Assembly: GCF_009914755.1 (NCBI RefSeq)
Contig: NC_060926.1
DNA from: the human T2T-CHM13v2.0 reference genome, Homo sapiens
Direction: 5' to 3' (one strand)
DNA: 64,000 nt
The notes beneath the pieces were generated by a model. It did not search any database. It was given only the letters and a program-made list of their open reading frames with translations, and was not told where the DNA came from. The translations under genes and the position numbers were made by a program. Every line of letters begins with the position of its first letter. Positions within the stretch are counted from its first letter, which is position 1. Positions 3,780 to 26,311 of the stretch are shown in pieces.

Positions 3780-3930
3780 AAAATATCACATCTTATATGT
3801 CAGATGTTTTTCACATACATAGCCTCTTTTATCTTCATGAAAACTAAGCAGTGTAAGTATTATTAGTTCCATTTTCAGATTGACAAAATGAATTTTAGTC
3901 AGGTTAAGTAATAAGTTCAAGGTAAGTAGT
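3780..3930 (-). mobile_element. MIR fragment
   Basis: gtattattagttccattttcagattgacaaaatg...aggttaagtaataagttcaagg matches the MIR core. Confidence 0.6.
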
Positions 3931-4413
3931 AAAACATCCTGCATTGCTTACCTGTATAACTTTACAACCTGAAATGTTTTGTTTATTATAAACTTTAAAT
4001 AAGTATTCTTTAAATAACCATATAATGCCTGGAAAGTAAATTAAACCTGTTGCGCATGGTATAAATATTAACCGTCTTGAACTACAAGGCTCACCCAGAA
4101 GGACAAGGAGGTTAAAATTTCTAATTTGAGTTTCTATGAAGTGGATGTCCAAAAGGAATAAAATAATTGGGGCTGAGATACATAAGTAGAGAAATAAAGA
4201 GAGGTGGAAAAACTAGATATTTCAATGAGATTGAAGAATGGGTGTTCTGGAAGACTGAACATTAATGATTTTAGGTGCTAGAAAATTGATTGGATTGCAT
4301 TGTGTGTACATTACCAGCCATATTGGTGGGTAGAAAATTGAGGAGATAGATAAATTGAGGAGATAGATAGATGCCCATATTTTTACATTATATTCTCCTT
4401 ATAGCGCATTTAA

Positions 4414-4543
4414 TTTTGCACATTTGGAATTTTTTAAAATATCCAAATTAAGGATACTTTCTCAACGGATATTTTTCTCATTAGACTCTAAACTGGTCAT
4501 AATTTCTGACCCATTGTGCCTGTGTGTTTGTGCAAAGTTGTGT
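4414..4543 (+). repeat. Local direct duplication, copy 1
   Basis: Aligns to 5549-5685 (ttttgcacat...aattaaggatacttt...gatatttttctcattagactct...ataatttctgaccca...tgtgcaaag). Confidence 0.85.
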
Positions 4544-5548
4544 TTAGTATGCTCATGTTTAATTGAAGCACTGAGTTGTGTTATTCTTCTTTTTCATATT
4601 TTTTCCAGTGCTTGAGACTTACTATTTGAAGTCTGATAGTATGTTGCAAAGTATGATTTTAATAAACCATAACCTAAAGGACAATTTCAATGGTTATAAA
4701 AGACACAGGGAGAAAAGACAGACTTTTGTGCATGGAGAAGGAAGTTACTATTTTTGAAAATCATACAGGTTGATGTATTTTGTTTGATAATAGATTATTT
4801 GTCTGAAAATAGGGTATGTTTTTATTAGTCAGTAGTGGAAGCAGAAGAAATCCCTAATTAAGTTTCTAGATTCTCAAAAGGAGTAAGAATAGTAATGGCA
4901 TTTAATAAGAATCTATTTTCAGATAGATGCTAGTGCTCTGCACTTATTTAATTTACTTATCACATCAACTCTACAAATTAAGCATTAATAATCCCTTTTT
5001 ACATATTTGCAGAAAAGGTTGATAAGGTTAAACAAATTTCCAAATACAACTTAACTGTTTTTTTATAAAGACAGAGTTTGAAGCATAGTTTTTTGCTTGA
5101 TTACAGTGATGAGTAAATACATTCTTTCCTTTTCTCTCTTTTTCTTAATATATAGAGTTTGGTTTTGAGCGTGAATATTCTTAAGTTCTGCAATTCAAAA
5201 TTGAGACTTCAAAATTTGTGTTTCTAAAAATATTCTTATTTTATTTTAATACGTAATCAGGAGTTTTCTAGGCATAGTAATAGATTGACCATTGGTTAAA
5301 TTAAGCTAATAATCACTCAAGGTGGAAAAAAGTTTTTTAAACCCATATTATATTCAAGTTGACTGGTAATTGCATCTTCTTTCCTTGCACTTCAGTAAAG
5401 TCCTAATAAATGCATTTTGGAAATGGATTTCCCTGAAGAGCTATTTTCATTCATTTGTCTGTCTCACACACACAAAAAAGCAGACAATATTCAACTTAAA
5501 ACATCTGCTTCATGCTGAAGATAAAATTCAGTCCAATAAATGTTGCTG

Positions 5549-5685
5549 TTTTGCACATCTGAGAATTTTCCTGAATGAATTCCAGAGAATTAAGGATACT
5601 TTCCCAACAGATATTTTTCTCATTAGACTCTGAACTGGTAATAATTTCTGACCCACTGTGCATGTGTGCGTGTGCAAAGGTGTGT
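5549..5685 (+). repeat. Local direct duplication, copy 2
   Basis: Aligns to 4414-4543 with scattered substitutions and small indels. Confidence 0.85.
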
Positions 5686-6283
5686 GTGTTTGTGTGTGCA
5701 TACATAAATCTTTCACTAATGGGTTATTGAACCTTTTTATATTGCAGATTATTTGATTTGTTGATATGTTTTTTACTTTGCTAGTAATCACTAAAGACTC
5801 TTAAACCATTGCAATAACAAAATAATTATTTCCTGACCTGCAATTGTGCTTTTAATCTTTTCAGACAATGGAGTTTTGTTGTTATTATGCTGCTCTAGCT
5901 TTTAGCTTGTCTTGAAAGCAGGATGATTCATTTTCGTTTTTCACTAGCATGTTTTTCTTTATTCTTCAAATACAGTTTTAAAATTCAGTCAAAGAATATT
6001 TCAAGCATGTTACAAAGGCACTCAAGCGACAATTAAATTTAAGAGGTTTAAAAAGGTTTAATCAGTGAAGTATCTAGAGAAATAAATCTTACGGGGTTCC
6101 AGAAGGTTGATGAATCATTGTGAAGGCATTAACACCTGTTTTCACTCTATGTGTAAAGTGTCCCTGCATTTGTTCTGTATTTGCTGAAGGCAAGAACAGA
6201 TATATATATATTTGTATCCTTTTTGCAAGGAAAAATAGCCTCAGGAATATTATCAAAATAAAATATTATCAAAGGCAAATTTA

Positions 6284-6411
6284 AGCCATGTGCAGTGGTG
6301 CATTGCCTGTAAGCTCAGCTACTGGAAAGGCCGAGATGAGAAGACTCTTTGAGCCCAGGAGTTTGAGGCCAGCCTGGGCAACATAGCAAGGTCCTGTCTC
6401 AAAAAAAAAAA
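6284..6411 (+). mobile_element. FLAM (free left Alu monomer)
   Basis: Single monomer ...gagcccaggagtttgaggccagcctgggcaacatagcaaggtcctgtctc followed by poly(A). Confidence 0.85.
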
Positions 6412-7259
6412 TGTGAGATTAGTACTCAGACATAGTTTAGTTTTCCTTTCTATGGGGAAAATAACTCATAGGTATGTTATGTAGACCATCATTTCAGCTA
6501 CTTTTCACTTTATGGGCAATTAACTTTTTTTCTTTTCTCAGCATTTTCTCTAAATAATGTTCATTTTAAACATATTTTTCAGAATATGTCAATAAGCCCA
6601 TGGTAACAGTTATGTATACTCATTGACATTAAAGCAAGGATTCTGCTTGATAAAACAGTATTTTTCAGTTTAAAGAAAATTAAATGAAATAAATAAAAAA
6701 TTTTAAAAACATAGGATTCATGTTTTGTTTCAGAAAATCCATAAATTCAGTTAAATAATTAATTTTATCCAGGGTACCTTAAAAGTGACCATAAGTAAAT
6801 AACATTATTATAGCAAAAGTAGAACTTTTCCAAACCAACAATCTATCACAACACAGGCCAGGAATTGGTATGGGGGAAAATAAGAACTTAATAATAAAAT
6901 AAGTATCTAAATTATAGATGCTTTTCATAATTTTTAGTTAAGAACAAAATTCTATATGGGCCCTGTCAAGTACTCACTACTTTTAATATTTGAGGAAGAC
7001 TATGTAATATACATGTTAAATATATATTTTATGCCATCTAATTTTGCCATTGATCGTTAGAGGAACAGAAAGCAACATATCAAGATTACATTTTCTAGTA
7101 TTGTGTATATTCATCACTTCATCTTGTTTCTCCCAATAATTGTTGTCTTGAGTTACAAGTAAATAATTATAATTAAGAAATTAAAATTATTTCTTGAGAA
7201 TAAAATTGATTTTTAGTGAAAACATATATAACAAAAACTGTAAAAATTCAGAATACAGA

Positions 7260-7790
7260 GATACGAATGCCAGCTAAGAAAATGGGGGCATACTATTTCA
7301 AATAAGATAACATTTGAGCTGGGCTTTAAAGGATAGATGGAGATTAAGCAAATACATATTTAAGACAGGGTATTCTAGATGAAGAGAATGGTACAAACCA
7401 TATAATAGAGAAAACACAGATTGTTCTTTGTGAATGGTATATGTCTAATTTGGTTCTAATACGAGATAATAAAAGCTTATGGAAGAAAACAAACTGAAAA
7501 GCAAATTTGGGATTAGACAAAAAAAAGTCCAAGTGATTTTTTTATTTTGGAAACAAGAAAAATTATTTGAAAATGTAATCAGTGAAGTCACACTATTCAA
7601 ATGCTGATATTTAATCTAGGATCACTTTCTATGATTAATTGAAGAGTAGAGAAAGAGAAACTAGTCATGGAACTATTGCAAATTTGAGGTATGATTGTCT
7701 GAATAAGATGGTTGCTGTGTAAACGCAAATGAGAAAACAAACAGAAAAATATTATAAAAAGAGAAAAAGAACTTTGATAGTGAAGAGAAA
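7260..7790 (-). mobile_element. L2 fragment (highly decayed)
   Basis: acatttgagctgggctttaaaggatagatggagatt...gggtattctagatgaagagaatgg is typical of antisense L2. Confidence 0.5.
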
Positions 7791-13859: not shown

Positions 13860-14270
13860 ACTCTAGCTCTGCTCATCCTGCTTAAGTGAGTGGATGTGAT
13901 TATAACCTCTGACATAAACCTGTGAGGTAATCAAGCCTGGGAAACATTTTGAGGTACTTTTACTCCAGTTCCTCGACTCATTACAGCACTGAGAATCCAA
14001 GCTCCGCAAGCACACTCTGATTGGTCCTAGGTGGTCCAGACGCTCTTAGCAGCAGTTGGTACCTTGATCTGAAACTTTGTTTTATTCCACTATTCAATCA
14101 GCCGCTGCTGCTCAAGCTCATGCTTTCTTCTGTCAGCTCTACAGGCCAGTGAATCACTGGTACGTCACCATTCCTGCAACCAAGGAGAAAGGAAATGACG
14201 TTCCTTTATGCAGTTGTTATACAACCAACTTGGGACAAGTTTGAGGGAGTGAGTCCGAACATTTAACAGT
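13860..14270. promoter_or_regulatory. Candidate cis-regulatory element
   Basis: Non-repeat, locally GC/CpG-richer stretch. Contains an inverted CCAAT box ctgattggtc (14017-14026), CRE-like tacgtca (14161-14167) and ETS/CRE-like ggaaatgacgt (14191-14201). Motif-level evidence only. Confidence 0.35.
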
Positions 14271-14321
14271 TACAATGTTATTTTTTGGTCAAATCACTAG
14301 GACCTGCCAGAAACTACTTAG

Positions 14322-14706
<385 letters not shown>

Positions 14707-15094
14707 AATTCCCTGCCATTTTGAGATATTTTCCAGATAATTTTGGTACTACCTCAAGGGATTGGTTATCATTTTTTCCTAGAAAACAGTGTCACAATTT
14801 GAACTTTTTATCTTGCTGTCTTTCAAAAAGTCACTCTGATTCAGAGGTGAGTAGGCAAATTATTATTTCTTCCTCTCATTTTAAACCTCCCATGATGAAT
14901 CAAAGACTAAGAATCAAATAACCGTATCATTGATATTTTCAATTATCTTTAGTATGAGCTTTAAAAACTTTATGTTGTTGTTCTTTATTTACAAATGTCA
15001 TAGCCATCACAAGAAGAAAGAAGCAGCCTGGATGGCCTAATTACCACTTAAAAGAGAGCTCCCCTGATGATACGATGTCAATTAATGGACTTTG

Positions 15095-15578
15095 TGTAAG
15101 GGAACATTTTGCATATTTCTGCATGTCTTGTGACAGCTTTTTCACTATTCTGTCTTTTCGAGGATGTTTGTATAGCTAACAGCCTTGGAAGATATATTTC
15201 TCTTTTGAGCAGAAGGCAAATTTTGTTTTCTGACCAGTACAATAAAGATAATATCTGCTACTAAAGCAATAATATTTTAGTTGGGGTTCACAGCCTCCCT
15301 CAACAGATGGGGGCCTTGCTAAGCTTGGGGCTCCTCAGCTGTGACAGGAAACCATTGTATGCACAGCATCCACTCCATCAGCTCCACATGGCCCCTCCAG
15401 TGGTTGTGTAGCAGGGAGCACCCATGTGAACCTGAAGCTCATACTGCCTGCTGAACTGTGAGCGCTAATGTCTTCTGTCTATGACACAGGGAATATTTGT
15501 CCATCAGTAAGACCATGACATCCTCACTGGTTAGTTTGCAAGTACAGTAAAATCTCAGATCCCTAGCAATTTTTGACA
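15095..15578 (+). mobile_element. LTR40-like ERVL solo LTR
   Basis: aggatgtttgtatagctaacagccttggaagat...tgaagctcatactgcctgctg...ttgcaagtacagtaaaatctcagatccc...ttgaca. Confidence 0.75.
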
Positions 15579-15649
15579 ATGTCTATAGGTTAAGCTACTG
15601 ATGTCTCAGCCTTTGCTTATTTCTTCAGTATAGACTAATCTGTCATCAT

Positions 15650-16240
15650 AAATATTTCCAGAGATCTTAACTTTAATATGTCCAGAATTGAACTCATATT
15701 TATTTGGTACCCCAAACCATTTTCCCTTCAAGTGCTCCCATTTCAGTAAATTTTACTCTGAATTACGTAGAGAAGAAACTTTAGAATGGTCAACCTGCAC
15801 TTCTAATCAACTACTAAGTCTCATTCCTGCCACTACATACCAAGCAGATCACTATCATTCCTTACTTCCTGTATTATTCTCCTCTAATCTACTGGCAGAC
15901 CACAGACAAATGTCAAAAGATCTAAGTATGTCACTTCCCAATTTAAAAGCTTTCAGTGGATTCCTGGTTGGCATTAGGTAAAATAACAATACTTAAACTT
16001 GGCTTCCAATGTTGCTGTTTCCACACCTAGTCTTGTGTCCAACCCTACCTTTTGTTCTCTCCTTCATGGACTCTAATCTCCAATTGTAATAAATTTCTGT
16101 GCATGAATCCAGTGTCTTTAATTTTACCCCTCATCACCTGGTCATTCTGTTCCCTTGGCATGAAACATTTTGTTTTCTATACTTTATCTGCCTAAAAATG
16201 ATGTAGAACATACAAAGCACTGAAAAACCTCCCTGCCAAC
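15650..16240 (+). mobile_element. L2 fragment
   Basis: ctttaatatgtccagaattgaactc...tatgtcacttcccaatttaaaagctttcagtggattcc matches the L2 3' region. Confidence 0.65.
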
Positions 16241-16634
16241 CAAGGAATGTATTAGATAATGTCAATAAGAAATAATTATTTAATGTTTCTGGAATTAATG
16301 CATTTTGAAATTTGCTTCATAAATTCATAGAAATTACTTTTTTCAAAACAAGCATCAATTTATGGTACCTAGAAACTACCCCCCTCACACACACATGCAC
16401 ACTAAGCCAGTGAGATGAACATTTGTATATCTGTATGAGTTGTGCATATTATGAATTCCTAGCAGTGAGAATGCAATTAATTTTGAAGGGTAAATAGAAT
16501 TATGATTTGTTAATACACCTGCAATGGTAAGCAATGCTAAATTAAGATACAACTAATTTTGATTAGCTATATTAAAACTTGAGGTATTATGGAAATTAAT
16601 GATAGCCATATTTCATTTGACATTTAGTTTAAAT

Positions 16635-16835
16635 CGGGTACTGGACCAAGTTCTTCATACATGTTACCTCATTTAATCCTCATAACATTCACATGGGTGG
16701 ATACTATTATTAATTAATTTTACAGATGGTGGAACTGAAGTTTAGAGGGTTTAACTTACCTAGTGTTTCTGAGCCAGATGGATCTCAGCAGAGAAAGAAC
16801 CGTGGTCTTCAAATTCCAAAATAAGCCTCTTTACT
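16635..16835 (-). mobile_element. MIR
   Basis: catttaatcctcataac...tactattatta...ttttacagatggtggaactgaagtttagagg. Confidence 0.8.
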
Positions 16836-18239
16836 CGACAGGCTCAACTGCATGCTATTAGTAGAGTGAAAATGAATGCACACAATGCCATCTTTGAAAG
16901 AGTGATAAATGTGATGAGTTAAAATAGTTTGTTTACCTGGAATTCCAGTATAACTGTCATCTTTAACATCTGTAAAGACATTAGTAAAAATGCCTGTGAG
17001 TTTGGATATCTGATTAAAATAAAAATTCTACTAAAGTGAGTTATTTTCACCAATATTACTAAAAAAGAAAGCTGAAGTCATGGAGTGTAACAGTCACAGG
17101 GCATTTTATATAAAGCTCCTCAGTTCCAAATCCTCAGGTCCTCAGGATGTGGGGCTATTCCATCGCCACTTACATTGTCCTATGGTGAGTTCTGCCCACA
17201 CTACCCTGAAAACTCATAAAATCTAAAATCTTGGCCGATAAACATGTATATTGTTCAAAATAATTTGAATGGAAATCAATTTAGAGAATATTCACCTGTT
17301 AAGAATCAGGCCTTGAGATCTTATGGAAGTTATTAATCTTGGAGAACAAAGATATTGTCCTGTTGCTAAGTACATTGCCACTAGACAATTAGGAGTACTT
17401 CTTTACTTTATGAGACTCATAATGAGACTTTCTCCTCCAAGTCTTCTTGAAAAAACCTGTTATAGCCTTTTCAAAGAGAAAATTAATTCAAATTAAATTA
17501 TATATGTATAGCTGAAATATGTTTGAGAAATCATCAAAACAATAATACATATTATTAAATTTATTATAACAAACTTATAAAAATTGCAATTTACAGAATT
17601 CACACTTACAGAGAGATATATGTCAAGTGATTACTACATAGAAGCAGGGGAGAACAGAGAGTGGGAGTAAAGCTCTAGAATTAGTCTGGCTAGTTCATCT
17701 GGGCAATACCACTTCTGTTCAATAATTTTGGAACAAGAATGATGTTATTGTCCTCCATAGAGGAGAAATGTAATCTCATAGGCCAATATCACTGGAAGCT
17801 GGTATGCAATTTCTACAGCAGACATTCTGCTCCAGGTTACCCATCTTATGGGAGTTCATTTTGGATCTCAGCACAAAGGGATAGATCTCTCCTTTGGTGG
17901 GTCTTAGGCCTTAATCAGTACTGTTCTACCAGAGAGGCAGCCGAAAGTTCTAATCTTTATTTCAAATTCTAAATGATCTGTTCTGAGATTTTCGTATTTC
18001 TGCAGGTAAAAAATAACCGTAAATACTAAACTTGCTTCCTTGGGTCTATATTCTCCTTCAAATCATGGCTTGCTACTATTTAATTTCCTGTTGATTCACT
18101 GATGTCTTAAAGTAAATGTTTGATATGTTACCCAGACTTTTTGGTTGTTTCTCACAATTCAAGGTAAGTTCCATATTATTTAGTTCAAAATTATACAATA
18201 CAGAAGTCTTCATTTAATATTTTCAGAAATCTTAAGACT

Positions 18240-18344
18240 TAGAAATATTATTTTCTTTTGACAGATGAAAAACATAAGGATCAAAAAGAGTAATTTATCA
18301 TTCTGAGATAATATATATATATCTAAGGTTATATAATTATTATA
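18240..18344 (-). mobile_element. MIR fragment truncated by the satellite island
   Basis: aatattattttcttttgacagatgaaaaacataaggatcaaaaagagtaatt...ctaaggttatata matches the MIR core, then stops. Confidence 0.5.
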
Positions 18345-19258
18345 TGATTATTAAGACTGATATTTAATAATTAATCATATTATTACTCCTAATACCACAG
18401 GGGGTGTACACCTACCTGTGATATTGTTCCTCATATCCAGGGATGGAGAGCATGATATTAGTTTTAATATCGCAGTAGGTGTACACTCACCCTGTGACAC
18501 TGATCCTAATATCCAGGGGGGAGAGTATGACATGACTCCCAACATAACAATGAATGTACAGCCACCTGGTGATATTGCTCCGAATATTCATGGAAGAAGC
18601 CTATAATATTACTCCCAATATCGCAGGGAGTGTACACCTCTTCTGTGATATTGTTCCTAGTATCCTGAGGGGGAGAGGATGATAATAATTCCAGTATCGC
18701 AGGCTGTGTTCACCCACCCTGTGATATTGATATGAATATCCTGAAAGGGAGAGGATGATATTACTCCCCCATAATAGATAGATGTTATTCCCCATAATAG
18801 AGTAGGAGGTGTACACCCACCCTGTGATATTGTTCCCAATATTCAGAGGCCAAGAGGTTGATATTACTCCCAATATCGCAGAAGGTGTACACCCCCGTGT
18901 GAGATGGTCCTTAATAATATTCCAAGGTGGAGGGGGTGATATTACTACTTATATCGCAGAAAGTGTACACCCCCCATGGATATTGTTCCCATGATCCTGG
19001 AGGGAAGAGGATGATATTACTTTAAATATCACAGAAGGTGGACTTGCCCCCACTGATATTGTTTCTAATTTCAACGTGGGAGAGGACGATATGCCACCCA
19101 ATATCGCAGGGAGTAGAAACACCCCTGTGATACTGTTCTTAATATTCAGGGAGGAAGAGGATGATATTACACCCAATACAGCCGGGTGTACACCTTCTGT
19201 ACACCGAGGGTGTAAACACATCTGTGAAATAGTTCATAATTTCCAGAGGGGGAGATGA
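18345..19258 (+). repeat. SATR1/SATR2-type ~75-bp satellite, left arm of a ~0.9-kb inverted repeat (~12 monomers)
   Basis: Monomer gatattactcccaatatcgcagggggtgtacaccccctgtgatattgttcctaatatccagggggagaggat. The arm is the reverse complement of 19362-20249. Confidence 0.9.
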
Positions 19259-19361
19259 GGCACCCCCCTGAGATATGGGGAGTAAGAGCCACCCCCTCTC
19301 CCCCTCTGGTTATTACGACCCACGGTGGACTCACAGCTTGTTTATGATATTGTGAGTAGTA
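19256..19361 (-). repeat. GC-rich variant monomer and palindrome spacer
   Basis: tgaggcacccccctgagatatggggagtaagagccaccccctctccccctctggttattacgaccc. The same variant recurs at 23239-23334 and aligns to the reverse complement of the main monomer. Confidence 0.85.
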
Positions 19362-20249
19362 TCATCTCCCCCTCTGGAAATTATGAACTATTTCACAGAC
19401 GGGTGTACACCCGTCTGTATTGGGAGTAATATCATCCTCTTCCTCCCTGAATATTAAGAACAGTATCACAGGGGTGTTTCTACTCCCTGCGATATTGGGT
19501 GGCATATACCCCTCTCCCACGTTGAAATTAGAAACAATATCAGTGGGGGCGTGTCCACCTTCTGTGATATTTAAAGTAATATCACCCTCTTCCCTCCAGG
19601 ATCATGGGAACAATATCCCTGGGGGGTGTACACTTTCTGCGATATACGTTGTAATATCACCCCCTCCGCCTTGGAATATTATTAAGGACCATCTCACACG
19701 GGGGTGTACACCTCCTGCGATATTGGGAGTAGTATCAACCTCTCGGCCTCTGAATATTAGGAACACTATCACAGGATGGGTGTACACCTCCTACTCTATT
19801 ATGGGGAGTAATATCTATCTATTATGGGGAGTAATATCATCCTCTCCCTTTCAGGATATTCATCACAATATCACAGGGTGGGTGAACATGGCCTGCGATA
19901 CTGGCATTATTATCATCCTCTCCCTCTCGGGATACTAGGAACAATATCACAGAAGAGGTGTACACTCCCTGCGATATTGGGAGTAATATCATACGCTTCT
20001 TCCGTGAATATTCGGAGCAATATCACCGGGTGGCTGTCCATTCATTGCTATGTTGGGAGTCATGTCATACTCTACCCCCTGGATATTAGGATCAGTGTCA
20101 CAGGTGAGTGTACACCTACTGCGATTTTAAAACTAATATCATGCTCTCCATCCCTGGATATGAGGAACAATATCACAGGTAGGTGTACACCCCCTGTGGT
20201 ATTAGGAGTAATAATATTATTAATTATTAAACATCAGTCTTAATTATCA
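19362..20249 (-). repeat. SATR-type satellite, antisense array (right arm of the inverted repeat)
   Basis: Reverse-complement monomers (gatattgggagtaatatcatcctctccc...). About 30 differences from the left arm in ~580 bp compared by eye. Confidence 0.9.
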
Positions 20250-20595
20250 ATGGTAATATTAATTAATAGTACAACCTTATTAATCATTAATGATTATTTT
20301 AAATATATGATTATGCATGATTTAAATTATTACTATTAAGGTCATTTTTCAATAATATTAGTTATTAATTTTAATATTAATTATTGTTTTATTACCAACA
20401 TCACTTATGATTGATTTAAGTAACATTAATTACTGATATCATTATTTTATTATTAATAGTGATATTACTATTATTAGTAGTAATCATTAATATTTTTAGT
20501 CCATATTAACTTTTACTATCTCTATTGTAATTATTAATATCGATGATTACTATTAATTGTTATTATATTTATTAATATTAATAATTAATATAACT
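20205..20595. repeat. Extremely AT-rich low-complexity core between the divergent arrays
   Basis: ~390 bp of tattaat/aatattaa/ttattat words with very little G/C. Confidence 0.9.
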
Positions 20596-23238
20596 GTTCC
20601 CGATATCCGTGGGGGAGAGGATATTACTCCCGATATCGCAGAAAGTGTACACCCTTCTGTGATGTTACTTCTAATAGCTGGGGGTAGAGGATGACATTAT
20701 TGAAAATATCGCAGTGGGTGTACATCCCTTCGGTCATCTTGTTCCTAATATCCTGGGTGGGAGCAGATGAAATGACTCCCAATATCTCAGGGGGCGGAGA
20801 CCTCCCCCGTGATACTGTCCCTAACGTCCAAAGGTGGAGAGGATGGTATTTCTTCCAATTTCACAAGGGGTGCACACCACCCCTGTGATATTGATCCTAA
20901 TATCCAGGGGGCAAGAGGATGATATTAGTCTCAATATTGCAGGAGGTGTACACTCCCTAGGGATATTGTTCCTAATATCCAGGGACGGAGAGAATGATAT
21001 CACTCCCAATATAGCAGGGGGTGTACACCCCTTCTGTGACATTGTTCCTAATAGCCAGCGTGGGAGAGGAAGATATTACCCCCAATATCGCAGGCGGTGT
21101 ACACCCCCTTGTGACATTGTTCCTTCTATCCTGGGAGGGAGAGGAAGATACTAGTGGCAATATCGCAGGGGCTGTACACACCCACTGTGATATTGTTTCG
21201 AGTATCCCGAGGGGGGAGAAAATGATATTATTCCCAATATCGCAGGGGGTGTACATCCTCCTGTGATATCGTTTCTTATATTCAGGGGGAGAGGATGATA
21301 TTACTCCCAATATCTCAGGTGTTGTACACACCTCCTGCGATATTGTTCCTAATATCCCGAAGGGGAGAGCATATTACTCTCAATATCGCAGGGGGTGTAC
21401 ACCTCCTTTGGAATACTGTTTTTAGTATCCATGATGGGAGAGGATGATATTACTCTCAATATCGCAAGAAGTGTACAGCCGCCTGTGATATAGTTCCTAA
21501 TATCTAGGTGGAGAGAGGATGATATTACCGCCCGTATTGCACGAGTTGTAAAACCTCTTCGATATTTTGCCTACAATCCCGAGGGGAGAGGACGATACTA
21601 CTCCCAATATCGAAGGTGTACACCCCCCTGTGACTATTCCCAATATCCAAGTCGGGAGACGATGACATTACGCCCAATATCGCAGGGGATATACACCCAC
21701 CCTGGGATATTGTTCCTTTTATCAAGAAGGGGAGAGGATGACATTACTCCCAATATCACAGGGGCTGTACACCCCTCCTGTGATATTGTTCTTAATATCC
21801 TAGGAAAGAGAGGATGATACTACACCCAATATCGCAGGGGGTGTACACCCACCTCCTTAAGATATTGTTCTTAATGTACTCCACCTCCCCCTACCAGGGA
21901 TATTGTTCCTCATATCCAGGGGATGAGAGGATAACATTATGCCCATTATCGCAGGGGGTGTACACACCCTCTGTGATGTTGTTCCTAGTATCCAAAGGTA
22001 GAGACGATGATATTACTGGCCATATCGCAGGGGGTGTACACCCTTCTGTGATATTGTTTTTGATATTCGAGGTGGGAGAGGATAACATTAGTCCCAATAT
22101 GGCAGAAGGTGTGCGGACCCCTGTGATATAGTGCCTAATGTACAGGCAAAAGAGAATAATATTACTCTCAATATCGCAGGGAGTGTAACCCCCTCAACCC
22201 CCCGTATATTGTTCGTAATATGCAGCGGGGTAGAAGCTGATATTACTCCCAGTTTCGCAGAAGGTGCACACACACCTGTGATATAGTTCGTAATACCCAG
22301 CGGGAAAGAGGCTGATATAACTCTGGATCTCGCAGTGGGTGTACACCCCCAACCCCCCCGGGGTATTGTTCCTAATATCCAGGTGGGAAGACGATGATAT
22401 TGCTGACAATATCGAAGGGGGTGTACAACTCTTCTGTGATATGGCTTCTGATATCGAGGGGGTGAGTGGATGATATTACTCCCAATAACGTAGCAACTGT
22501 ACAGCACCGTGTGATTTTGTCCTTAATAACCACATGGGGAGAAGTGATATTACTCTCAATATTGCAAGGGGTGTACACCCCACCTGTGACATTGTTTCTT
22601 ATATCCAGGAAAGGAGAAGATGATATTACTACCAATATCGAAGAGATGTACAGCCCCATGGGATATTGTTCTAAATATACAGGTTGAAAGAGGATCAGAT
22701 GACTCCCAAAATAACAAGGGGTGTACACCCCGCCTGTGATATGAATCGTAAAATTTAGAAGAGTGAATGACATTGCTTCCAAAAAAACACGGGGTGTACA
22801 CCCCCTCTCTGATATCGTTCCTGTCATCTAAAGGAAGAGATGATGATATTACTCCCAGTACCGCAGAATATACACCCCCCCTGTGATATTGTGCGTCACA
22901 ACTAGTGGGGGAGAGCATGATATTACTTCAAATATGACAGTGGCTTTACACCCCGTCTGTGATACTGCTCCTAATTTCCAGTAGCTAAAGTAAGATGTGC
23001 CTCCCAATAGAGTAGTGGGTGGACACCCGCCCTGTGATATTTCCCCGACTATTTAGGGAAACACAGGATGACATGACCCCAAATCCCGCAAAAAGTGAAC
23101 ACCCATTGTGTGATATGGTTCCTAATACGCGCAGGTGTAGAGGATGATATTACGTTTCATATCGCAGGCTGGGTACACACACCCTGTGAAATTGTTCCTA
23201 ATGGCAGGAAAAAAGAGAATGCTAATAATGGACACAGA
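20596..23238 (+). repeat. SATR-type ~75-bp satellite, sense array (~35 monomers)
   Basis: tgtaca cores recur at ~73-77 bp spacing (e.g. near 21021, 21097, 21172, 21249, 21322). Confidence 0.92.
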
Positions 23239-23334
23239 TAAGAGCCACCCGCGATGCGGGGAGTAAGAGCCACCCCCTCTCCCCCGCCTGGCTATTACGA
23301 CCCGCATCGCAGGGGGGTGAGGCACTCCCCCGCG
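23239..23334 (-). repeat. Terminal GC/CpG-rich variant monomer
   Basis: gcgatgcggggagtaagagccaccccctctcccccgcctggctattacgacccgcatcgcaggggggtgaggcactcccccgcg is in direct orientation with 19256-19323. Confidence 0.85.
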
Positions 23335-23339
23335 TTTTT

Positions 23340-25885
<2,546 letters not shown>

Positions 25886-25928
25886 CCTCAATTTGTTTTT
25901 ATAATTATGTATTTTAGTGTTAGCTTTC

Positions 25929-26311
25929 CATATTAGTCCATTTTTTTACACTGCTGTAAGGATACTACTGGGTAATTTATAAATGAAGAGGTTTAATTGA
26001 CTCACAGTTCTGCATGACTGGTGAGGCCTCTGGAAAGTTACAATCACTGTGAATGGGGAAGCAGTCATGTCTTACATGGAGGCAGGCAAGAGAGAGCACT
26101 TGTGAGTACAGGAAAAACTGCCATCATCTATAAAACCATCAGATCTCCTGGGAATTCACTCAGTATACTGAGAACAACATAGAGGAACTGCCCCCACAAT
26201 CAAATCACGACCCTCCCTTGACACCTGAGGATTGCAGGTGCCTCCCTCGGTAAGTGGGGATTACGATTTGAAATGAGATTTGGTTGGGAAACACAGTGCC
26301 AAACCATGTCA
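25929..26311 (-). mobile_element. THE1D/MSTA-type MaLR solo LTR
   Basis: tattagtccat...gaggtttaattgactcacagttctgcatg...gagatttggttggg...ccaaaccatgtca. 5-bp TSD ctttc (25924-25928 / 26312-26316). Confidence 0.92.

What the first reader, a model, noticed from the sequence alone, without database searches (positions are those of the whole stretch)
18345..20249. ~0.9-kb fold-back palindrome with a 103-bp loop and junction microhomology
Seen: 18345-19258 is the reverse complement of 19362-20249. The match includes monomer-specific variants, the small ccccataataga duplication and the first ~45 bp of the AT core. Identity is roughly 95% by eye, far above monomer-to-monomer similarity, with one ~24-bp indel (near 19195-19220 in the left arm). 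The junction uses tga, shared between ...gggggagatga and the GC monomer's ...ggggggtga|ggcac. Inference: a 3' end inside the GC monomer folded back on itself and copied ~900 nt (fold-back priming or rolling-hairpin-like synthesis) during or after insertion. The structure could extrude a cruciform, be fragile or invert, and would yield ~0.9 kb of dsRNA if transcribed.
Basis: partly seen in the sequence, partly recalled or inferred. Interest (0 to 1): 0.8.

Follow-up and report, generated by a model that had tools for sequence, protein, structure and literature searches.

The report
Old fold-back duplication in SATR repeat
A 0.9-kb inverted repeat on human chromosome 2 is real and is best read as an old, decaying copying accident at the edge of a known satellite-associated repeat, an ordinary kind of rearrangement with no sign of function.

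Summary
The inverted repeat is real. Window 18345-19258 is the reverse complement of 19362-20249 across a 103-bp spacer. Substitution identity is about 95.6%, with a 24-bp and two 1-bp indels.

The material belongs to a dispersed composite repeat (76-bp monomers, an AT core, monomers). Its layout and loci fit the SATR1/SATR2 repeats of Xiao/DA duplicons, but the name could not be tested. Twenty-three other full-length copies are nearly as similar: the nearest differs by 5.2-6.1%, the arms by 4.5%.

The arms are still sisters on the tree (100/96). They share 8 derived sites along their length, and two alternative groupings are rejected. The spacer continues the right arm in all 23 paralogs. The central junction sits on a TGA microhomology. 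This supports a local fold-back or template-switch duplication, roughly 10-25 million years old.

New here: the arm extends, with gaps, to 18324. There it abuts, across a 4-bp TAAG overlap, a 608-bp segment (17720-18327). That segment's only other genomic copy lies inverted about 52 kb downstream. This suggests a multi-template-switch event.

Cruciform formation and fragility look unlikely. A long RNA hairpin would fold if the locus were transcribed, but transcription is unshown. Ordinary; low interest.

The parts
17720..18327 (+). 608-bp low-copy segment directly left of the left arm. Its only other genomic copy lies inverted at chr2:193,137,986-193,138,596, about 51.7 kb downstream and outside the window.
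   Evidence: 2 candidates, 2 scored, 93%; 568 of 605 aligned positions identical (6.1% substitutions). Homology stops at ...TCTAAG (18327) on one side and at 17720 on the other.
18324..18327 (.). Outer junction: 4-bp overlap (TAAG) shared by the end of the 608-bp segment and the start of the left arm.
   Evidence: The downstream paralog reads ...TCTAAG then unrelated sequence. The reverse complement of right-arm positions 20271-20279 reads TAAGGTTGT, against window 18324-18332 TAAGGTTAT.
18324..18344 (+). Gapped extension of the left arm, derived from the AT core and 9 bp shorter than its right-arm counterpart 20250-20279.
   Evidence: local alignment reaches 18324 with 20279; the motif AACCTTA occurs only in the two arms among 11 aligned rows; the 9 other copies have AACGTTA, AACTTTA or AACATTA.
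18345..19258 (+). Left arm: inverted copy of 19362-20249, made of about 36 bp of AT core plus about 11 monomers of 76 bp.
19194..19220 (+). Stretch holding the 24 extra bases of the left arm (the 'long' form). The right arm carries the 'short' form.
   Evidence: The long/short state needs at least 5 changes on the family tree, so it is a recurrent deletion between GGGTGTACACC direct repeats. The nearest paralogs (chr13, chr2:113.9 Mb) are long.
19256..19258 (.). Central junction: TGA microhomology between the end of the left arm and the sequence that precedes the spacer in paralogs.
   Evidence: TGA in 14 of the 20 paralogs that cover the position; window 23311-23325.
19259..19361 (+). 103-bp single-copy spacer. 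It is the natural outward continuation of the right arm: part of a second monomer type of about 80 bp, plus a monomer end.
   Evidence: a spacer homologue lies directly next to the arm homologue in all 23 other copies. One search shows the alignment.
19362..20249 (+). Right arm, extending with gaps to 20279. It is part of the intact composite element.
20214..20594 (+). AT core of the composite element, about 15% G+C.
   Evidence: (84-90% to 23 paralog cores).
20595..23335 (+). Forward-oriented monomer array and terminal monomers of the second type. The right end of the element is near 23335.
   Evidence: Positions 20595-21200 match 19 paralogs at 88-93%. Positions 21201-22347 are shared only with chr14:45.95 Mb.

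Best explanation
**What was there first.** The locus already held one copy of a dispersed composite repeat. Its order is: second-type monomers, an inverted 76-bp monomer array, an AT core of about 380 bp, then a forward monomer array (19259 to about 23335).

**What happened.** A DNA end or nascent strand reached the outer edge of that element. It switched template onto the complementary strand 103 nt back, pairing through a 3-nt TGA/TCA microhomology. It then copied about 0.92 kb of the inverted array and the first ~66 bp of the AT core. That made the left arm.

**The outer end.** The outer end of the new copy is joined through a 4-bp TAAG overlap to a 608-bp segment. That segment's only other copy lies inverted about 52 kb downstream. 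The simplest reading is one replicative, microhomology-mediated chain of template switches: flank, then an inverted copy of the +52 kb segment, then an inverted copy of the arm, then the element.

**Since then.** The arms have diverged by about 4.5%, roughly 10-25 million years' worth. I saw no evidence of homogenisation, selection or function.

**Shown:**
- the repeat and its boundaries
- the sister relationship of the arms
- the continuity of the spacer with the right arm
- both microhomologies
- the 608-bp inverted paralog

**Inferred:**
- the enzymology (fold-back priming versus fork template switching)
- that the 608-bp piece and the arm arose in one event
- which 608-bp copy is the original
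- whether the event followed or accompanied the arrival of the element
- the date
For: **Sister arms.**
- Arms sister at 100/96, stem 0.010, tips 0.030 and 0.018. Support is 99/98 with the indel region removed.
- AU tests reject the left arm grouping with the chr13 and chr2:113.9 Mb copies (p 0.005), and the right arm grouping with the two chr14 copies (p 0.004).
- 8 shared-derived sites are spread from 19502 to 20248. Seven occur in none of the 23 other copies. AACCTTA is a further shared state.
- Both arms rank the same paralogs in the same order.

**Geometry.**
- The spacer homologue is contiguous with the arm in 23 of 23 paralogs.
- In paralogs the element continues beyond the spacer with ...GGGGTGA and further monomers. 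The element is therefore broken exactly at the junction.
- TGA is the state in 14 of the 20 paralogs that cover the position.

**No other source.** No closer copy and no second copy of the junction turned up in two whole-genome searches.

**The 608-bp segment.**
- It has exactly one other copy (2 of 2 candidates scored).
- Its divergence, 37 of 605, is not significantly different from the arms' 40 of 888 (z about 1.4, my arithmetic).
- Its boundary overlaps the arm's by 4 bp.

**Precedent.** Hermetz et al. 2014 (PMC3907307, passages read) describe human inverted duplications with a single-copy spacer. They found 2-8 bp of inverted microhomology at 13 of 21 sequenced junctions.
Against: - The margin over the nearest paralog is small: 4.5% against 5.2% (right arm) and 6.1% (left arm) to chr13:53.53 Mb.
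- Analysed separately, the spacer-proximal third puts the right arm nearer to a chr12 copy (0.033) than to the left arm (0.044). The middle third is unresolved. Only the AT-core-proximal third gives a starred pair, 98/94.
- The arms differ in the 24-bp indel. The left arm is long, like its nearest paralogs. The right arm is short, like 10 other copies.
- The AU groups were named after I had seen the tree.
- The genome search scores only 34-37 of about 350 candidates, so a closer donor could have been missed.
- The first junction (17719/17720) shows no microhomology.
- The direction of the 608-bp copy is unknown, because both copies sit in single-copy flanks.
- A 3-bp microhomology alone is weak evidence: about 1 in 64 by chance.
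- No outgroup genome was available.
Confidence: 0.78

Rival explanations
1. Two separate events. A simple fold-back duplication made the palindrome. Independently, a rearrangement of the ~52-kb interval (an inversion with duplicated breakpoint sequence, or an unrelated small inverted duplication) placed the 608-bp segment next to it.
For: - The 608-bp pair is nominally more diverged than the arms, 6.1% against 4.5%.
- The TAAG overlap would fit an end-joining breakpoint equally well.
- One flank of the +52 kb copy is a (TA)n tract, a plausible break site.
Against: - It needs the second event's breakpoint to fall within 0-4 bp of the palindrome's outer end.
- The difference in divergence is not significant (z about 1.4).
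- The flank of the +52 kb copy shows no similarity to the AT core beyond shuffled controls (score 22 against a shuffle mean of 23.5).
Confidence: 0.25
2. Two independent family copies were juxtaposed head to head, as at chr14:45.95 Mb, with no copying of one arm from the other.
For: - Inter-locus identity is almost as high as arm-to-arm identity.
- The arms differ in the 24-bp indel.
- The spacer-proximal third does not resolve the pair.
- chr14 holds two elements head to head with 83-97% complementary arms around a spacer of 500-600 bp.
Against: - The arms are sister at 100/96, and two alternative groupings are rejected.
- 7 shared sites are unique to the arms.
- The indel is homoplastic, needing at least 5 changes on the tree.
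- The left copy ends exactly at a microhomology with the broken edge of the right element.
- At chr14 the two arms fall in different major clades, unlike here.
Confidence: 0.05
3. Two independent copies were later homogenised by arm-to-arm gene conversion, giving a false sister relationship.
For: - Palindrome arms are known to convert each other (recalled, not from a call).
- The sister signal is strongest in one third of the arm.
Against: - Shared-derived sites run from 19502 to the last base of the arm.
- The 40 mismatches are evenly spaced: the largest gap is 92 columns against a mean of 23, so no recent tract is visible.
- Conversion does not explain the truncated left copy or the junction microhomologies.
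Confidence: 0.05
4. Assembly artefact: a chimeric fold-back read or a mis-join in a satellite.
For: Satellite arrays with palindromic layout are described as hard to assemble (macaque T2T preprint, passages read).
Against: - Artefactual fold-backs give identical arms. These differ at 40 sites plus three indels.
- The pattern polarises sensibly against 23 paralogs.
- Both junctions lie in otherwise single-copy context.
- Reads were not available to me.
Confidence: 0.02

Closest known systems
Fold-back inverted duplications with a single-copy spacer (Hermetz et al. 2014, PMC3907307; yeast fold-back inversions, PMC7467729 and PMC10622511, seen as search listings only)
   Same: - The inverted copy lies next to its template.
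- A single-copy spacer continues one arm.
- There is a short inverted microhomology at the spacer/inversion junction (3 bp here; 2-8 bp in 13 of 21 patient junctions).
   Different: - The scale differs: 0.9-kb arms and a 103-bp spacer, against duplications of 10 kb to tens of Mb and spacers of 766-70,466 bp.
- This one is interstitial and rejoined at its outer end. There is no terminal deletion, telomere capture or dicentric outcome.
- It is a fixed, old event, not a de novo pathogenic one.
Replicative template-switch rearrangements with templated insertions (FoSTeS/MMBIR; named from my own knowledge. Lee, Carvalho and Lupski 2007 seen only as a reference-list entry)
   Same: - Several junctions in series.
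- Microhomology at two of the three junctions (4 bp and 3 bp).
- The templates lie nearby on the same chromosome (0.1 kb and about 52 kb).
- Inverted segments are included.
   Different: A single-event origin is inferred, not shown. One junction has no microhomology. The direction of the 608-bp copy is unknown.
SATR1/SATR2 satellite-associated repeats of Xiao/DA core duplicons (Mohajeri et al. 2016, PMC5088589; Li et al. 2009, PMC2700803; macaque T2T preprint 10.1101/2025.08.04.668424; passages read in each)
   Same: - The architecture is an inverted array, an AT-rich stretch, then a forward array. The macaque preprint describes its SATR1 core unit this way.
- Paralogs sit at 4p16.1, 11q13, 12p13, 3p12, 7p22 and similar places. 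From memory I associate these with OR7E/Xiao clusters.
- SATR repeats are reported at rearrangement breakpoints.
   Different: - The window copy is a solitary 5-kb block in a gene desert. No OR7E, HERV-E or wider duplicon homology was detected in its flanks.
- The SATR name could not be tested, because no repeat library was available.
Fragile palindromes and cruciform-forming inverted repeats (PATRRs recalled from memory; inverted Alu work of Lobachev and colleagues, abstract of PMC10164571 read)
   Same: Long inverted repeat with a computed hairpin of -1015 kcal/mol (DNA parameters) and -1662 kcal/mol (RNA parameters).
   Different: - The spacer is 103 bp, the mismatch 4.5%, and a 24-bp bulge lies 38 bp from the centre. 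The centre is not AT-rich (47% G+C).
- The abstract states that distance and divergence reduce inverted-repeat instability, except in long single-stranded DNA.
- The standard non-B annotation used for ape T2T genomes caps spacers at 100 bp, so this repeat would not be listed.

Membership tests
Fold-back inverted duplication with spacer | The inverted copy is adjacent to its template, and the arms are each other's closest relatives. | tested here: met
   sister at 100/96; 4.5% against at least 5.2% to any of 23 paralogs.
Fold-back inverted duplication with spacer | The single-copy spacer is the ancestral continuation of one arm. | tested here: met
   the spacer homologue abuts the arm homologue in 23 of 23 paralogs. 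One search shows the alignment.
Fold-back inverted duplication with spacer | Short inverted microhomology at the spacer/inversion junction. | tested here: met
   TGA. The ancestral state is inferred from the 20 paralogs that cover the position (14 TGA, 5 CGA, 1 GGA). The overlap is 2-5 bp, depending on which paralog stands in for the ancestor.
Fold-back inverted duplication with spacer | Terminal deletion, or a dicentric or breakage-fusion-bridge outcome. | tested here: not met
   The structure is interstitial. The outer end of the copy is joined to local sequence at 18324-18327.
Microhomology-mediated multi-template-switch rearrangement | Two or more junctions in series with microhomology, using nearby templates. 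| tested here: met
   TAAG at 18324-18327 and TGA at 19256-19258. The templates lie 0.1 kb and about 51.7 kb away. The junction at 17719/17720 shows none.
Microhomology-mediated multi-template-switch rearrangement | All segments were laid down in one event. | tested here: inconclusive
   Divergence is 6.1% (37 of 605) against 4.5% (40 of 888), z about 1.4. No outgroup genome was available.
SATR1/SATR2 satellite-associated repeat | Sequence match to the curated SATR1/SATR2 consensus. | not testable with these tools
No Dfam or Repbase library was on hand.
SATR1/SATR2 satellite-associated repeat | Inverted array, AT-rich stretch, forward array; dispersed at tens of loci. | tested here: met
   There are 23 full-length paralogs on chromosomes 2, 3, 4, 7, 9, 11, 12, 13 and 14, plus more diverged or partial copies on 1, 5, 15, 18 and 22. 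Compare the macaque core unit described.
Cruciform-prone fragile palindrome (PATRR-like) | Near-perfect arms with no spacer or a very short one, and an AT-rich centre. | tested here: not met
   The spacer is 103 bp and identity is 95.6%. A 24-bp bulge lies 38 bp from the centre. The centre is 47% G+C.
Hairpin-RNA locus (inverted-duplicate small-RNA or dsRNA source) | Transcribed across both arms. | not testable with these tools
   No expression data were available. The hub's annotation lists no gene within 100 kb. There is no Rfam match in 16000-25000. The fold itself is strong.

The most novel reading that the evidence does not exclude
The edges of SATR-type composite repeats are intrinsic hot spots for replication template switching. 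On this reading the locus is a three-junction fossil of such an event. The same property would explain three things: why SATR1/SATR2 mark breakpoints of Xiao/DA-associated inversions and duplicative transpositions (PMC5088589); why the family's own unit is a quasi-palindrome around an AT core; and why a second, larger head-to-head pair exists at chr14:45.95 Mb.
Probability: 0.2. Interest if true: 0.55.

Novelty: new member of a known kind. Interest (0 to 1): 0.22.

Why it matters
In itself it matters little. It is one small, old, decaying inverted duplication in a gene desert.

Its value is as a clean worked example. The repeated family supplies 23 outgroup copies, so both breakpoints can be read to the base and the ancestral sequence inferred without another species. 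That shows a fold-back signature with a spacer and microhomology at sub-kilobase scale, chained to a templated piece from 52 kb away.

If the pattern recurs at other SATR edges, it would bear on why these repeats sit at breakpoints of large primate rearrangements.

Tried and rejected
- **Empty site from a transposable element.** I tried to recover the pre-insertion site from an element spanning the insertion. The right flank (23336 onward) is an old interspersed repeat that begins at the element's edge (1101 candidates at about 74%). The left flank does not align upstream in three of its copies, so this was uninformative.
- **Direction of the 608-bp copy.** The flanks of both copies are single-copy and no target-site duplication was seen. 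Unresolved.
- **Is the flank of the +52 kb copy the missing remainder of the AT core?** Local alignment scores did not exceed shuffles. Rejected.
- **More DNA around the +52 kb copy and upstream of the window.** I used the 3.6-kb locus already held.
- **Other low-copy duplicates of 14000-26000 within the window.** Only Alu-like matches.
- **Rfam.** No match.
- **Ji and Zhao 2008 (PMC3092482).** Not held. The Xiao structure is cited second-hand from PMC5088589 and PMC2700803.
- **Literature on this locus.** Searches for SATR1 with palindrome, fold-back, inverted duplication or hairpin terms listed nothing about it. Among the 12 papers listed, none contained SATR1.
- **Relative-rate asymmetry of the arms.** 22 against 16 unique changes, not significant (p 0.33).
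Full report
**Observation.** The repeat finder reports three collinear inverted pairs that tile 18345-19258 against 19362-20249 at 95-97%. A gapped alignment gives 869 matches and 40 mismatches (95.6%; 21 transitions, 19 transversions). The left arm has 24 extra bases at 19194-19220, and there are two single-base indels. BLAST reports 92.9% when the 26 gap columns are counted. The spacer is 19259-19361, 103 bp. The arms are built from 75-76-bp monomers that resemble each other at only 66-71%. The in-register arm match is therefore far above the satellite background.

**What the material is.** The window is CHM13 chr2:193,068,001-193,132,000, and the assembly could be searched. The monomer arrays belong to a dispersed composite repeat.
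- A 606-bp piece right of the AT core matches about 20 other loci at 88-93% over its full length.
- The left arm finds 23 other full-length copies at 87-93% on chromosomes 2, 3, 4, 7, 9, 11, 12, 13 and 14, plus more diverged or partial ones (34 of 347 candidates scored).
- Comparison with 20 fetched 10-kb loci gives the canonical order: second-type monomers of about 80 bp, the spacer homologue, an inverted 0.9-kb array, an AT core of about 380 bp, then a forward array.
- The unit repeats in tandem about every 2.25 kb at chr3:75.66 Mb and chr12:8.43 Mb.

This layout matches the macaque SATR1 core unit described as an inverted SATR1 array, an AT-rich repeat and a forward SATR1 array (10.1101/2025.08.04.668424, passages). 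SATR1/SATR2 are described as defining the Xiao element and the 'SATR-HERVE-SATR' flanks of Xiao/DA duplicons (PMC5088589 and PMC2700803, passages). I could not test the name against a repeat library.

It is a near thing.
- In a 25-row alignment the arms differ by 4.5% in substitutions. The nearest paralog (chr13:53.53 Mb) differs by 5.2% from the right arm and 6.1% from the left.
- The maximum-likelihood tree makes the arms sisters at 100/96, with a shared stem of 0.010 and tips of 0.030 and 0.018. Support is 99/98 after removing the indel columns.
- AU tests reject the left arm grouping with the two long-form nearest copies (p 0.005), and the right arm grouping with the two chr14 copies (p 0.004). 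The caveat is that I named these groups after seeing the tree.
- Eight sites between 19502 and 20248 are derived in both arms. Seven of them occur in none of the 23 other copies. A ninth shared state (AACCTTA) lies in the AT-core extension.
- Both arms rank their paralogs in the same order.

Against this, the three thirds analysed separately are not all decisive. Only the AT-core-proximal third gives a starred pair (98/94). In the spacer-proximal third the right arm sits nearer a chr12 copy. A stretch of 300 columns carries few informative sites, so I read this as low power rather than mosaicism, but it leaves room for the rivals.

- The 'ccccataataga' duplication is in 21 of 23 other copies and says nothing about arm-to-arm copying.
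- The 24-bp indel at first looks like evidence for two origins: the left arm is long like the chr13 and chr2:113.9 Mb copies, and the right arm is short like ten others. But the state needs at least five changes on the tree and lies between GGGTGTACACC direct repeats. It is a recurrent slippage deletion.

**Junctions.**
- *Spacer and central junction.* The spacer continues the right arm in all 23 paralogs. In paralogs the element runs on outward with ...GGGGTGA and further monomers. In the window it is therefore cut exactly where the left arm begins.
- *TGA.* The left arm ends ...GGGGGAGATGA. The paralogs end TGA at the matching place in 14 of the 20 that cover it, as does the window's own right-end monomer. 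A nascent strand ending in the complement of TGA could pair 103 nt back on its own or the sister strand and copy the array in reverse. That reproduces the observed order base for base.
- *Outer end.* With gaps the arm reaches 18324 with 20279.

- The 608 bp immediately to the left (17720-18327) have exactly one other copy in the genome. It is inverted, at chr2:193,137,986-193,138,596, about 51.7 kb downstream and just outside the window (alignment; 568 of 605 identical).
- Its homology stops at ...TCTAAG, and the arm starts TAAGGTT..., so the two overlap by TAAG (18324-18327).
- The pair's 6.1% divergence is not significantly different from the arms' 4.5% (z about 1.4).
- Further left the flank is single-copy, as are both flanks of the downstream copy. 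The direction of copying could therefore not be settled, and the junction at 17719/17720 shows no microhomology.
- The coincidence of boundaries is most simply explained by one chain of template switches: flank, inverted copy of the +52 kb segment, inverted copy of the arm, element.
- The alternative is a separate rearrangement of the 52-kb interval whose breakpoint happened to land on the palindrome's end. It remains open.
- I found no similarity between the downstream flank and the AT core beyond shuffled controls.

**Timing.** The Kimura distance between the arms is about 0.047 (my arithmetic).
- With recalled primate rates of 1-2 x 10^-9 per site per year, this is roughly 10-25 million years. 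That sits inside the 25-million-year span Li et al. give for Xiao/DA spread.
- The shared stem (about nine changes) means the arms' ancestor had already diverged from every sampled paralog. This favours duplication after arrival at this locus. An unsampled or lost donor would allow duplication during arrival.
- Mismatches are evenly spaced, with a largest gap of 92 columns against a mean of 23. There is no sign of recent arm-to-arm conversion.
- All seven CpG transitions fall on the left arm (7 against 0, binomial p 0.016). CpG counts are now 12 against 19. Non-CpG changes are balanced at 17 against 15. I have no explanation for this asymmetry.

- *Folding.* As a single strand the 1,905 nt fold into one long hairpin. 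The RNA minimum free energy is -1662 kcal/mol, against about -509 for shuffles and -685 for a direct-copy control. Of 898 pairs, 860 are arm-to-arm. The longest perfect helix is 91 bp. With DNA parameters the energy is -1015 kcal/mol.
- *Transcription.* Whether the locus is transcribed is unknown. No gene is annotated within 100 kb (hub note) and Rfam finds nothing. In macaque, SATR arrays are reported as 86% methylated on average.
- *Cruciform and fragility.* The 103-bp spacer, the 4.5% mismatch and a 24-bp bulge 38 bp from the centre all weigh against it. The abstract of PMC10164571 states that distance and divergence reduce inverted-repeat instability, except in long single-stranded DNA. 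A permanganate/S1 study of ape T2T genomes found inverted-repeat and cruciform motifs depleted in single-strand signal, and used a 100-bp spacer cap that would exclude this repeat.
- *Persistence.* Survival for millions of years is itself evidence of stability.

**Verdict.** The functional suggestions are untested or unlikely. This is a new instance of a known kind of rearrangement inside a known repeat family.

Noticed in passing
L029 (G000:C14:45945500-45955400), about 3835-7756: A second, larger head-to-head arrangement of the same repeat family. Two whole units (AT core, arm, spacer homologue, second-type monomers) face each other around a centre of 500-600 bp. Complementarity is 83-92%, with a 118-nt patch at 97%. 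The two arms fall in different major clades of the family tree, so this is a juxtaposition of different copies rather than a fold-back of one.
   Followed up: partly
window 20595-22347 and L029 2013-3917: The long forward monomer array right of the AT core (window 21201-22347) is shared only with the chr14:45.95 Mb copy, at 91-93%, among the 20 fetched loci. For the arm, however, the nearest relative is chr13:53.53 Mb. Different parts of the element therefore have different nearest relatives, which suggests exchange or unequal crossing-over among copies.
   Followed up: no
window 18345-19258 versus 19362-20249: All 7 CpG transitions since the duplication fall on the left arm and none on the right (binomial p 0.016). 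CpG counts are 12 against 19. Non-CpG changes are balanced at 17 against 15. Unexplained.
   Followed up: partly
window 19259 and 23311-23335: The element begins at the first base of a second-type monomer (GGCAC...) and ends 14 bases into another (...GGGGGGTGA GGCACTCCCCCGCG). It looks like one unit plus a short overlap cut from a tandem array.
   Followed up: no
L021 (G000:C13:53525300-53535200), about 4150-4370: The chr13 copy, the closest paralog of the arms, is bounded on its outer side by tandem CACCAATCAGC-containing repeats. From memory these resemble an LTR12-type sequence. Not tested.
   Followed up: no
L042 2110-2190 (chr2:193,138,597 onward): The downstream copy of the 608-bp segment is flanked on one side by a (TA)n-rich tract of about 60 bp.
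   Followed up: partly
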